DNA of 64,000 nucleotides from Perna viridis (taxonomy: Eukaryota). Where the stretch lies: positions 19,492,704 through 19,556,703 of the forward strand of contig CM074521.1 in assembly GCA_037379345.1 (NCBI GenBank), in the 5' to 3' direction. Each line of letters begins with the position of its first letter. Within the stretch, counting starts at the first letter, position 1. Made by a program: the position numbers. Of the stretch, positions 57,001 to 60,000 are shown piece by piece.

Positions 57001-60000
57001 ATGATTTCTTCTGTGTGTTTTGGAATAGAAATAACAGTTGATATGGTGAAACGCAACCAATGCACCAGTGTATAACCTGAATACAAAATCAAAAATACTT
57101 TCAGAGATCACCAAGTGTAAACACAAGCCTCTTAAGTTATATGCTCTGAAAAAGTAATAAATTCATGGTAACAGAATGATGATACTTCTTCAAAATAAAA
57201 CTCAAAGAAGTAAAATAATGGCACACAGATGTATTGACCATCATCTGCTGATTGTGGACAGATGTGTGTCTGTGTCAGGGTTAAACTACTTCTATAAGGC
57301 CTTAACTATCCCAATTTATTGTACATGTAAGGTCATAAATGAAGTTAAACATCAAACATGCAATGAAATTCATTCAATAATGCATCCAATTCTCTTTGTG
57401 GAATACCTCAACATACACCATAAAGACAAAATGAGATATCCGCCTAAAGAATGCTCACAGTTTTCTGAAAATCTGTCTAACCTAAACACTGATTAATCTG
57501 AAAACCTGTCTAAACCAAACATTTAATAATCTGAAAACCTGCCTAAAGCAGACACTTTTGAAAGTCCCTTTATATCAGTTTAAATATACTTTGAACCTTA
57601 GTAAAGTGGACACCTATCTAAATGGTACCAGTTTCAAAGTCCTGAAGGGGTTCAGTTTAGACAGATTTTACTGTACAATAGGCTCTTATTGAAGGTAAAT
57701 ATAGTTTTATTGCATTAATGTTCTATCTCCTTGTAGGATCTAAGTGCATTTGCAGTGCCTTTGATGGACGGGGGCGTAAAGGAAATGACTCCCAATAATG
57801 ACCTTGCCGACGGGGAGTTTAGGCCAAGGTCAGGATCAACAGGATTGCGTGGATTATTCTCTCGTAAGAAAGATCGACAGAGAAAACACTCAGGCGACAC
57901 TGCTTCTAAAGAAACTTCGCCTAGTACTTCAAAAGTTCAGAATTTCTTAGACACTTTCAGACCTCGCTCAAAATCAGATTTGTCAGGAATTAAAAAACCA
58001 GGAAAAAAAATTACTCCACAAGTGAAAATGGAGGAATCAATGGACGAAACACAATTACGTGATGCACTGACAAATATGCAGACAGACAAACATGCAAATA
58101 CTCCAATGGGACAGATTTTAGAAAAACAGTTATTATCCCCATCAGGAACCAATCATGTGAAACAGCGCCACACCTCAGGGAATGATAGTTTTATGTCGAG
58201 ATTTAGAGCTCGATCAAATTCAGATTCTAAAGCCAAGTCTCCAAGAAAGATGCTGACCAAACAGGTAAATATTGATAAAGATATACAGCGTCACACCTCA
58301 GGGAATGATAGTTTTATGTCAAGATTTAGAACTCGATCAAATTCAGATTCTAAAGCCAAGTCTCCAAGAAAGATGCTGACCAAACAGGTAAATATCGATA
58401 AAGATATACAGCGTCACACCTCAGGGAATGATAGTTATATATCAAGATTTAGAGCTCGGTCAAATTCTGATTCCAAAACCAAATTTCCTGGAAAGATGAT
58501 GGCCAAACAGGTAAATATTGATGAAAATATATATATATGATAATTATTATAATGCTTAATAAATTTTATGGCTTGATTGTCATCCACCTTGAAAAAAATA
58601 AGTGAATTACATAAAAGATTTTCTAAGTATAAATGTTGATCTATTTTTCACAGAAAAATAATTTTTCATCATTTCCAGTGGTGGACCTTCCAACTTGCAA
58701 ATCATTTTGCAGTTTTTGCCTGAATATAGCTGAAATATTGCTGCTCGTGCGTTAAACCCCAACTATCAATCAATCAATCCATCAAAATCTAAAAACTAGT
58801 TCGTCTTCACCTAAGAATGTATTCAAGTATCTGTAAGTGTTTAGTTGTGGTCATGTATTGATACTGACATTTTTTGTGTAGTATAATAGAATGTCTCATG
58901 TTTTTTGTGAAAAACATTTTGTTGGTAGGGTACCAGTTTTCGTGATATGGTCAAAGTGTGAATTTAAGTTCAGGTCACAGGGGCATATCTAGAAGTTAAT
59001 GCTGAGTGAAACAAGTCAGATAAAAATTTTTGAGAAAGAATTTATGAAAATGATTTCATGCAAAAAAACCTTCTTCACATTTTAGGGACCTCAGCAGTAT
59101 GTGAAGTTTCATTGGTGTGACATTGTCCTGGATGTTTTATGGAAATAAAAAATTATCAAACTTAAGATGCTTTGACAATCTTAGAAAATTGACACCCAGA
59201 CATTAAAATTCCTTCACAGTATTAAAAATCCATTGTAATATCTGAACAATAAATTTTTAAAAAGTTACAGAAATTGGAATGATTTTTGATTTGTTGGTCA
59301 GAAGGGGGCAATAAGCACTTTCCAGCTTCCACCTGTGAATCAAGCACTTTCCAGCAGCAAATTTCATGATTCACAGGTTAGTTAAAAAGAGCTCATGAAA
59401 TTTGGTATGGAGGAAAGATACAGGATGTCCTTGTGCAGTTGAACCCTCAAGTTATGTGGGAGTTATGCCCCTTTGACTTATTTCACAAAAATGCATTACT
59501 GAAGCATCTTGCCATCACAACTACCCTTTAAGTGCTGGGAAGTGTTTAACAAAGTTTGTTTAGGTTTTGTACCAAGGTGTTCCAATCCCTTTTGCATATT
59601 AGGACATACTTTTATTTTTTTTTATTTGTCGATTTAGCTTCAAGATATTTCCTTGTCTCCTTTATTACAGCCATTGATTACTTTGATATCCGATTTCAAA
59701 ATTGAAATAACTCGGAATCGGAGTCTTTCTGTCGGCTGCATGACATAATAACTCTACTTTATTTCTATTTACTGGTATCTGTGATGCATTTTCCTTAAGG
59801 CGTTCATTTTATGATATGGAAGTCGATTTTGACTCTGTTTCCTTTGAAATCTAGTTTGGTTACAGTCTTTTTTAGTAAGTGCTATATTTCTATATTAAAC
59901 TGGTAGATTTTCTTTTGTAATCAATAGCATTCATTGCCAGTTGCATACAAAACTAATCTCAAAACAAGGTTAATGAATAAAAGAAGGTTAATTAAGGCCT

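What the first reader, a model, noticed from the sequence alone, without database searches (positions are those of the whole stretch)
58162..58530. In-frame triplication of an exon end plus its splice donor: a possible splice-tunable phospho-motif array
Seen: the 123-bp unit (41 codons) comprises about 102 nt of exon, the donor CAG|GTAAAT and about 21 nt of former intron, with no stop until 58538. The three identical donors are all phase 0, so each can join the 62141 microexon and give +0, +41 or +82 aa. Each unit adds QRHTS and RFRARSNS (RxRxxS). Copy 2 differs from copy 1 at three exonic codons. Copy 3 has 7 synonymous and 7 replacement changes, but RFRARSNSDSK is intact with three synonymous changes, which hints at coding constraint (small numbers). 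Inference: exonisation by donor duplication that changes the number of basophilic kinase sites in the AMPK gamma extension. Read-through would give a truncated protein with no CBS domains.
Basis: partly seen in the sequence, partly recalled or inferred. Interest (0 to 1): 0.72.

Follow-up and report, generated by a model that had tools for sequence, protein, structure and literature searches.

The report
Tripled exon end and splice donor
In a mussel gene for the energy-sensor subunit AMPK gamma, the last 102 bases of one exon and its splice signal have been copied in tandem three times, in frame, so the protein could carry one, two or three copies of a conserved regulatory motif, but which copies reach the mRNA remains untested.

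Summary
There is a 123-bp x3 tandem array at 58162-58531 with no indels. Each unit holds 102 nt of exon end, the donor CAG|GTAAAT and 21 nt of former intron. The frame stays open to the TGA at 58538.

The gene is the N-terminal-extension exon of a mytilid mussel AMPK gamma gene, 85% identical to Mytilus proteins. All 41 mollusc orthologues aligned carry one unit, so the array is lineage-specific.

An unnamed assembly of evidently the same species (P0039) holds units 1 and 3 with the same linker. This confirms the duplication independently. It also hints at copy-number variation, although a k-mer assembly collapse would look the same.

Donor choice cannot be read from DNA, and precedents conflict. 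In the human F7 intron-7 VNTR only the first donor is used. In vitro, duplicated consensus donors splice at the last one. Unit 3 keeps an open frame, an intact donor and an intact invariant core. This is mildly unlikely if unit 3 is neutral (joint 0.005-0.035 in simulation). Each feature alone is not significant.

I lean (0.5) towards partial or full use of the downstream donors. Regulated "tuning" is unsupported. This is a new member of a known kind, of moderate interest.

The parts
57737..58264 (+). N-terminal-extension exon of the AMPK gamma gene up to the ancestral (first) donor; 176 codons
   Evidence: Acceptor ttgtag|GAT. tblastn gives 85% identity to Mytilus californianus AMPK gamma over 57737-58264, E 6e-87. 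The search for homologous proteins gives 38 hits, all with PF00571.
57956..57988 (+). Older paralogous motif FRPRSKSDLSG in the same exon (RxRSxSD)
   Evidence: 25-nt, 84% DNA match of the unit to 57956-57980. The motif is present in the fetched orthologues.
58163..58285 (+). Unit 1: 34 ancestral exon codons (QRHTS...RFRARSNSDSK...KQ), donor, and 21 nt of former intron (VNIDKDI if read through)
   Evidence: It keeps the state seen in the mytilid orthologues at every replaced position.
58286..58408 (+). Unit 2: 97% identical to unit 1; one replacement (A16T)
   Evidence: 4 differences from unit 1 (2 synonymous, 1 replacement, 1 in the intron-derived part). It is absent from P0039.
58409..58531 (+). 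Unit 3: 87% identical to unit 1; 14 unit-specific changes; invariant core intact; SPRK changed to FPGK
   Evidence: It is present with identical residues in P0039.
58262..58270 (+). Donor 1, CAG|GTAAAT; last exon base 58264; the position used in all orthologues
   Evidence: The orthologues join KQ to NSTDS.
58385..58393 (+). Donor 2, CAG|GTAAAT; last exon base 58387; would add 41 aa
58508..58516 (+). Donor 3, CAG|GTAAAT; last exon base 58510; would add 82 aa; abuts the original intron
58538..58540 (+). First in-frame stop (TGA) of the read-through frame, inside a (TA)n run
   Evidence: The run length differs in P0039.
62141..62177 (+). 37-nt microexon NSTDSGTPPGSP(+1 nt); phase-0 acceptor; donor GTAAGT
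   Evidence: tblastn gives 11 of 12 residues identical to the orthologues.
62775..62873 (+). In-frame 99-nt alternative cassette exon with an RRRRSS motif
   Evidence: tblastn to M. coruscus P0004 gives 90% identity over 62786-62872. Boundaries were read.
54387..54446 (+). Alternative first coding exon (MSGLYMYCLK...); 3' boundary not determined
   Evidence: tblastn to M. coruscus P0003/P0004, 80% identity; sequence.

Best explanation
This is a young, lineage-specific tandem multiplication of an exon-intron junction. The unit of 123 bp (41 codons) holds the last 102 nt of the N-terminal-extension exon of a mytilid mussel AMPK gamma gene, its 5' splice site and the first 21 nt of the intron.

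Shown:
- There are three units in frame and three identical phase-0 donors.
- Orthologues carry a single unit.
- The units have two ages. Units 1 and 2 differ by 3%. Unit 3 differs from both by 13%.
- A second assembly carries units 1 and 3.

Inferred:
- The array arose in two steps by slippage or unequal exchange, in a genome region full of minisatellites.
- The downstream donor(s) are used in at least an appreciable share of transcripts. The exon is then extended, and the protein carries two or three copies of the conserved RxRSxSDS module joined by a VNIDKDI linker.
- Each module is most likely a basophilic-kinase phosphosite and phospho-dependent docking site. The basis is an analogy with the two phosphosites that bind a 14-3-3 dimer in mammalian gamma-2 long forms.
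- The extra copies are tolerated, with relaxed constraint on unit 3. They are not a regulated switch.
For: Structure.

Gene identity and junction.

Lineage specificity:
- 41 of 41 aligned mollusc sequences have one unit. P0039 was left out of that alignment as the same species.
- Read-through ORFs of three related mussels (P0040-P0042) and further cluster members show one unit followed directly by intron.

Independent support for the duplication: P0039 equals the window ORF minus exactly one 41-residue unit, with 216 of 217 aligned residues identical.

Signs that unit 3 is not freely decaying. The two values are for a null with all changes on unit 3 and for a two-lineage null:
- No stop: 0.62 / 0.69.
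- Donor 9-mer intact: 0.32 / 0.43.
- No replacement in the invariant codons 15-22: 0.12 / 0.20.
- Replacement share of 7/12 or less: 0.09 / 0.35.
- All four together: 0.005 / 0.035.

The only residue difference between the window and P0039, and the only indel, both lie just after donor 3.

[quoted passage not shown] All products are in frame, so no nonsense-mediated decay would hide them (sequence).

Module function: mammalian gamma-2a/c bind a 14-3-3 dimer through two phosphosites of the disordered extension. The diphosphopeptide binds 20-fold to more than 60-fold tighter than the monophosphopeptides (PMC13142926; abstract, section 7 and passages read).
Against: - No transcript evidence of any kind. 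No protein of 234 aa or more with more than one unit was found in the protein sets.
- The closest natural precedent, the 37-bp VNTR spanning the human F7 exon 7 donor, uses only the most upstream donor in cells. Pseudo-sites with a consensus value up to 91 did not compete (PMC1557585; abstract and discussion read).
- Each constraint statistic is individually non-significant, and the set was chosen after seeing the data.
- Unit 3 has replacements at columns conserved in 36/41 (F>Y) and 38/41 (L>M) orthologues. It has also lost SPRK. This fits decay as well as relaxed constraint.
- Absence of indels is not unusual here. 7 of the 27 other TRF rows in the window also show 0% indels.
- Using donors 2 or 3 would lengthen an already long 528-nt internal exon to 651 or 774 nt between kilobase-sized introns. 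By the exon-definition view (recalled) this disfavours them.
- No sequence similarity of the mussel extension to any PDB chain at E up to 10, so the 14-3-3 reading is analogy only.
Confidence: 0.5

Rival explanations
1. Silent intronic minisatellite of the F7 type. Only the first donor (58264) is used. Units 2 and 3 are intronic copies whose donors are unused pseudo-sites. Their open frame is a leftover of a not very old duplication, and the protein is unchanged.
For: - The F7 intron-7 VNTR, whose first unit spans the exon 7 donor, uses only the most upstream of 5-9 identical donors in several cell types (PMC1557585).
- Unit 1 alone keeps the state of the mytilid orthologues at every position. 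Unit 3 carries 7 derived replacements, including conserved columns and loss of SPRK.
- A null with unit 3 neutral is not rejected by any single statistic.
- The window holds about 16 separate tandem arrays (28 TRF rows), so one falling across a junction is not surprising.
- No multi-unit protein of 234 aa or more is in the databases.
Against: - The joint probability of an open frame, an intact donor, an intact invariant core and the low replacement share is 0.005-0.035 under neutrality.
- In vitro, identical strong donors favour the downstream copy (PMC3413131).
- The donor matches the consensus at 8 of 9 positions (consensus recalled), so it is stronger than typical pseudo-sites.
Confidence: 0.35
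2. The three donors are chosen in a regulated way (by tissue or stress), so that the number of basophilic phospho-motifs in the AMPK gamma extension is tuned by splicing.
For: - In-frame design and an invariant core kept in all three units.
- The gene already uses in-frame alternative modules with basic phospho-motifs. Examples are the 99-nt cassette 62775-62873 and an optional FASLIQ-type microexon in Mytilus.
- NCBI lists isoform numbers up to X22 for Mytilus edulis among the cluster members shown.
- Two-site avidity is known for 14-3-3 on mammalian gamma-2.
Against: - The three donors and their 8-nt flanks are identical and equally accessible in a local fold (0.47-0.50). No cis element is visible that could discriminate them.
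- The array is young and absent from all relatives.
- Copy number may itself vary between assemblies.
- No expression data.
Confidence: 0.1
3. Assembly artefact. The true locus has one unit (or a different number), and the array was created or expanded by misassembly.
For: Tandem repeats are error-prone in assemblies. P0039 shows two units rather than three.
Against: - The units differ at 4 and 16 positions, in a pattern expected of real divergence.
- The unit-linker-unit 3 junction and the diverged unit 3 recur in an independent assembly that has a different downstream haplotype.
- The two-unit form is itself what a short-k assembler would give from three units. The variants that tell the unit 1-2 junction from the unit 2-3 junction lie 41 nt apart (positions).
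Confidence: 0.03

Closest known systems
Human F7 intron-7 37-bp VNTR whose first unit spans the exon 7 donor (Borensztajn et al. 2006, PMC1557585; abstract and discussion read)
   Same: A tandem repeat whose first unit contains the exon-intron junction, so the authentic donor is followed by identical copies of itself. The copy number is polymorphic.
   Different: [quoted passage not shown] The unit here is 123 bp, in frame and open.
- The F7 unit carries little exon. This one carries 34 codons including a conserved motif.
- In F7 the upstream-only choice was shown by experiment. Here the choice is unknown.
Model pre-mRNAs with two identical consensus 5' splice sites (Hodson et al. 2012, PMC3413131; passages read)
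   Same: Identical strong donors about 120-175 nt apart compete for one acceptor. U1 can occupy both.
   Different: That system is artificial and in vitro, and it splices almost wholly at the downstream site. The present locus has a 3.6-kb intron, three sites and a one-mismatch donor.
14-3-3 binding to the N-terminal extension of mammalian AMPK gamma-2a/c (Chen et al. 2026, PMC13142926; abstract, section 7 and passages read)
   Same: A disordered extension of the same subunit carries two phosphosites that together clamp a 14-3-3 dimer and lower kinase activity. The number of sites sets the affinity.
   Different: - No detectable sequence similarity: 0 PDB chains matched at E up to 10. Whether the peptide entry is in that copy of the PDB was not checked.
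- The mussel motif RSNSDS lacks the +2 proline of the classical mode-1 site (motif recalled).
- Binding is untested.
Alternative in-frame modules of the same gene in mussels (cassette 62775-62873; FASLIQ-type microexon in Mytilus isoforms)
   Same: Short in-frame pieces of the extension, some with basic phospho-motifs, are included or skipped.
   Different: Those are separate exons shared between species. This is an extension of one exon by duplicated donors and is confined to one lineage.
Intron gain or shift by tandem duplication of an AGGT-containing segment (e.g. PMC2891723; search listing and start of abstract only)
   Same: A tandem duplication that copies splice signals and leaves the reading frame intact.
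   Different: That model creates a new intron between the copies. Here the only such candidate (58265-58411, 147 nt) has a purine-rich tract before its AG and is unlikely to be spliced.

Membership tests
AMPK gamma subunit (PRKAG) gene | Four CBS repeats (Pfam PF00571) forming the nucleotide-binding core | not testable with these tools
   The CBS exons lie beyond the window end. tblastn of six full-length orthologues finds nothing credible past the cassette exon. The orthologues themselves carry PF00571.
AMPK gamma subunit (PRKAG) gene | Orthology of the N-terminal-extension exon and its junction to the next exon | tested here: met
   85% identity over 57737-58264 to Mytilus californianus AMPK gamma (E 6e-87). 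KQ|NSTDS junction and microexon are conserved.
Junction-spanning VNTR with iterated identical donors (F7 intron-7 type) | The first repeat unit contains the exon-intron junction, and the following units repeat the donor exactly | tested here: met
   Three CAG|GTAAAT sites, identical from -8 to +8, spaced 123 nt apart.
Junction-spanning VNTR with iterated identical donors (F7 intron-7 type) | Copy number polymorphic among individuals | tested here: inconclusive
   P0039 has two units against three in the window. A k-mer assembly collapse would give the same result.
Junction-spanning VNTR with iterated identical donors (F7 intron-7 type) | Only the most upstream donor is used | not testable with these tools
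   No transcript or read data for this species were reachable.
Alternative 5' splice-site exon (exon extension) | Two or more donors of one exon joined to the same acceptor in mature mRNA | not testable with these tools
   Only the potential is shown: all three donors are phase 0 and open in frame. No multi-unit spliced protein was found.
14-3-3-binding extension of AMPK gamma-2 long forms | Sequence homology to the gamma-2 segment holding the two 14-3-3 phosphosites | tested here: not met
   phmmer of the 176-aa exon translation against all PDB chains gave 0 matches at E up to 10. Pfam gave nothing above its cut-off.
14-3-3-binding extension of AMPK gamma-2 long forms | Phosphorylation-dependent binding of 14-3-3 | not testable with these tools
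   This needs phosphopeptide binding assays. No 14-3-3 sequence from this animal was at hand.

The most novel reading that the evidence does not exclude
The array is a heritable, copy-number-variable (2-3 units) coding VNTR in the energy-sensor subunit AMPK gamma. Because each unit brings its own donor, both genotype and donor choice set how many RxRSxSDS phospho-docking modules the protein carries. This changes 14-3-3 (or kinase) avidity and hence AMPK activity between individuals or tissues of a mussel. It would be a natural in-frame counterpart of the F7 VNTR with a protein-level read-out.
Probability: 0.1. Interest if true: 0.7.

Novelty: new member of a known kind. Interest (0 to 1): 0.35.

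Why it matters
If the downstream donors are used, this is a clean natural example of how a disordered regulatory region gains extra copies of a conserved phospho-motif in one mutational step. The duplicated splice donor keeps the product in frame.

It would also be a natural test of an old, unresolved question: which of several identical 5' splice sites does the spliceosome choose in vivo? Here every outcome gives a stable in-frame mRNA that can be counted.

If only the first donor is used, it is an ordinary intronic minisatellite that happens to begin inside an exon.

Tried and rejected
- Looked for same-species spliced proteins or transcripts with 2-3 units. Three homology searches covered 469-2000 aa, 73-233 aa and 234-2000 aa, and one search covered all representatives. 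Only P0039, a read-through ORF of a 1089-nt contig, came up. It says nothing about splicing.
- Listed the clusters of nine proteins. No member was identifiable as the window's species, and no member fetched had more than one unit (8 members fetched of the 72, 11 and 14 in the three large clusters).
- P0080 (837 aa, 10 matched stretches) is a repeat protein with a signal-peptide-like start and SH3-like repeats. It is a chance match and was rejected.
- Searched 58511-62140 for a FASLIQ-type microexon with a strict AG...GT pattern: 0 candidates. This is weak evidence of absence.
- Tested whether unit 3's replacements avoid conserved columns. Two of 7 fall on the 13 of 34 columns that are at least 35/41 identical, against about 2.7 expected. 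So there is no depletion outside the 8-codon core.
- Local folding shows no difference in donor accessibility.
- A 147-nt intron from donor 1 to the ACAG at the start of unit 3 is judged unlikely.
- PDB and Pfam searches of the extension gave nothing usable. ABC_tran_Xtn scored 24.9 bits, below its 25.9 cut-off, and is taken as spurious.
- Literature: no paper on this array or on mussel AMPK gamma isoforms turned up (terms AMPK, gamma subunit, mussel, isoforms, N-terminal). Nothing turned up on donor duplication as an origin of exon extension.
Exons were searched one at a time, so junction peptides were not looked for.
No orthologous DNA could be fetched to polarise the synonymous changes.
Supplementary Figure S1C of PMC13142926 (conservation around the 14-3-3 sites) might bear on the homology question.
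Full report
**What is there**

The window is AT-rich (GC 0.31-0.34), holds no N and is rich in minisatellites. TRF lists 28 rows, about 16 separate arrays, in 64 kb.

At 58162-58531, TRF finds a 123-bp unit repeated 3.0 times, with 91% matches and no indels. The repeat finder and a blastn of the unit against the window show the same three copies and no other full copy.

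The array sits at the 3' end of a long open frame (57737-58540, 267 codons). This frame begins directly after an acceptor, ttgtag|.

In codon register the units are 58163-58285, 58286-58408 and 58409-58531. Each unit has 34 codons of exon (QRHTS...RFRARSNSDSK...KQ), the donor CAG|GTAAAT, and 21 nt that were the start of the intron (VNIDKDI when read through).

The last exon bases 58264, 58387 and 58510 are all phase 0. The first stop is the TGA at 58538, inside a (TA)n run.

**Which gene**

The read-through translation finds 38 proteins among 3735 candidates. All carry the CBS domain PF00571. All that bear a function name are called AMPK gamma subunits; the rest are unnamed or generically labelled. 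All are from molluscs where named.

The best matches are Mytilus californianus and M. coruscus at 85% identity. Only the first 66% of the query is covered, which is the part up to the first donor.

tblastn of six full-length orthologues maps these parts in the window:
- the exon 57737-58264;
- a 37-nt microexon, 62141-62177;
- a 99-nt in-frame cassette exon, 62775-62873;
- an alternative first exon starting at 54387.

The CBS exons lie beyond the window. The orthologues join ...KQ directly to NSTDS..., some through a 6-7-residue microexon. So the ancestral junction is donor 1 to 62141.

Exons were handled one at a time.

**The array is new in this lineage**

I aligned 41 mollusc sequences: bivalves, gastropods, cephalopods and a chiton. 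P0039 was left out as the same species. All 41 have exactly one unit.

Read-through ORFs from genomic or unspliced contigs of three related mussels show one unit followed at once by intron. In one such cluster the intron starts differ between members, while the exon part differs at only a few residues.

Within the unit, R15, R17, S20, D21 and S22 are invariant in 41 of 41, and N19 in 40 of 41. An older, related motif (FRPRSKSDLSG, 57956-57988) lies in the same exon. The duplicated piece therefore carries the best-conserved element of the extension.

**Independent support and copy number**

P0039 is an unnamed 224-aa ORF from a 1089-nt contig. It equals the window's ORF from its first ATG with exactly one 41-residue unit missing. 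216 of 217 aligned residues are identical. The one difference lies 13 nt after the last donor, and the tail then differs through the (TA)n run.

It runs into the intron, so it is genomic or unspliced RNA and says nothing about donor use. It does show that the junction unit-linker-unit 3 and the diverged unit 3 exist in a second data set with another downstream haplotype. The duplication is therefore not an artefact of this assembly.

The difference between two and three units may be a real polymorphism. It could also be a collapse. The variants that separate the unit 1-2 junction from the unit 2-3 junction are 41 nt apart, so a short-k assembler cannot phase them.

**History**

Site patterns give 14 changes private to unit 3, 2 private to unit 1 (both synonymous) and 2 private to unit 2. 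The simplest reading has two steps: an older duplication giving units (1/2) and 3, then a recent one giving units 1 and 2.

Microhomology at the breakpoints is minimal. The many neighbouring minisatellites suggest slippage or unequal exchange as the routine cause. This step is inferred.

**Are units 2 and 3 coding?**

The DNA cannot show this directly.

For unit 1 against unit 3, dN is 0.093, dS is 0.418 and omega is 0.22 (Fisher p = 0.011 against omega = 1). That test is misleading, because unit 1 is certainly constrained.

I therefore ran simulations that keep the observed number of differences. The first value is for a null with all changes on unit 3. The second is for a null where changes fall on two lineages, one of them coding.

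| Feature of unit 3 | All changes on unit 3 | Two lineages |
|---|---|---|
| Replacement share as low as observed | 0.09 | 0.35 |
| No stop | 0.62 | 0.69 |
| Intact donor 9-mer | 0.32 | 0.43 |
| No replacement in codons 15-22 | 0.12 | 0.20 |
| All four together | 0.005 | 0.035 |

This is a moderate likelihood ratio in favour of constraint. It is built from individually weak features that were chosen after seeing the data.

Points against constraint:
- F>Y and L>M fall on columns conserved in 36 and 38 of 41 orthologues.
- R>G and S>F destroy SPRK.
- Outside the core, replacements do not avoid conserved columns.
- The lack of indels is unremarkable: 7 of the 27 other TRF rows also have none.

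The in-frame period and open linker do not count as evidence for use. If downstream donors were used, only in-frame duplications would survive, so conditioning on survival cancels that factor (my reasoning).

**Mechanistic priors conflict**

In the human F7 gene, a 37-bp VNTR whose first unit spans the exon 7 donor gives 5-9 identical donors. Only the most upstream is used, in several cell types. Pseudo-sites with consensus values up to 91 do not compete (PMC1557585; abstract and discussion read).

In vitro, transcripts with two identical consensus donors 174 nt apart splice almost wholly at the intron-proximal, downstream site (PMC3413131; passages read).

Here the donors are identical from -8 to +8 and match the metazoan consensus at 8 of 9 positions (consensus recalled). 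They are equally accessible in a local fold (0.47-0.50). All three products are in frame, so none would be removed by nonsense-mediated decay.

**What a unit would do**

RxRxxS is the consensus of Akt-, RSK- and S6K-type kinases, and R-S-x-S resembles a 14-3-3 mode-1 site without its proline. Both motifs are recalled, not tested.

In mammals the long gamma-2 forms bind a 14-3-3 dimer through two phosphosites of the disordered extension. The doubly phosphorylated peptide binds 20-fold to more than 60-fold tighter than the single ones, and the complex has lower activity (PMC13142926; abstract, section 7 and passages read).

The mussel extension shows no sequence similarity to any PDB chain or Pfam family above cut-off. 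This is therefore a functional analogy, not homology. Extra modules could raise avidity for such a reader, but that is inference.

**Verdict**

| Reading | Probability |
|---|---|
| Downstream donors contribute appreciably (exon extension, extra modules tolerated under relaxed constraint) | about 0.5 |
| Silent F7-type intronic array | about 0.35 |
| Assembly artefact | about 0.03 |

No paper on this array or on mussel AMPK gamma isoforms was found.

In kind, this is a junction-spanning tandem repeat with iterated donors, which is known. Its in-frame, motif-bearing form in AMPK gamma is a new instance. Interest is moderate and would rise sharply with junction reads from 58387 or 58510.

**Unchecked**

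Transcript and read data for this species, orthologous DNA, the closed metagenome and viral contig collections, and paper supplements all remain unchecked.

Noticed in passing
window 1-64000: The window is unusually rich in minisatellites. TRF gives 28 rows, about 16 separate arrays, with periods from 20 to 339 bp. Examples are a 27-bp x48 array at 20573-21892 and a 48-bp x14 array at 16571-17226.
   Followed up: partly
window 57464-57556 and 57650-57669: A 33-nt x2.8 tandem repeat lies in the intron just upstream of the exon. An inverted partial copy lies about 130-160 nt downstream (arms 85-90% complementary), close to the acceptor at 57737. A possible effect on splicing was not examined.
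   Followed up: no
window 60685-60863: A 22-nt x8 minisatellite (73% matches, no indels) lies inside the 3.6-kb intron between the three donors and the microexon.
   Followed up: no
window 57956-57988: An older paralogous copy of the motif (FRPRSKSDLSG) lies in the same exon and is present in the fetched orthologues. It still shows a 25-nt, 84% DNA match to the unit. The extension thus already held two RxRSxSD motifs before the triplication.
   Followed up: partly
window 62775-62873: An in-frame 99-nt cassette exon encodes a hydrophobic stretch followed by RMRRRRSSGK. It matches an isoform of Mytilus coruscus (P0004), whereas P0003 skips it. This is another optional basic phospho-motif module of the same extension.
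   Followed up: partly
window 54387-54446: An alternative first coding exon (MSGLYMYCLK...) matches M. coruscus models. Its donor and phase could not be reconciled with a direct join to 57737, so a further small exon may lie between them. The other N-termini of the orthologues (P0001, P0002, P0005) were not found in the window.
   Followed up: partly
window 58558-58563: An AATAAA lies 48 nt after the third donor. Read-through transcripts could end here and encode only the extension. Whether the extra U1-binding sites affect such premature polyadenylation is unknown.
   Followed up: no
window 60018-60055 / 60208-60245: A 38-nt inverted repeat (82% complementary, 152 nt apart) lies in the intron. 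It resembles the ends of a miniature inverted-repeat element.
   Followed up: no
P0040 cluster: Read-through ORFs of a related mussel clade differ by substitutions and apparent indels within the first roughly 10 codons after the donor, while the 167 exon residues differ at only a few positions. This shows how fast the intron start evolves in these animals.
   Followed up: partly
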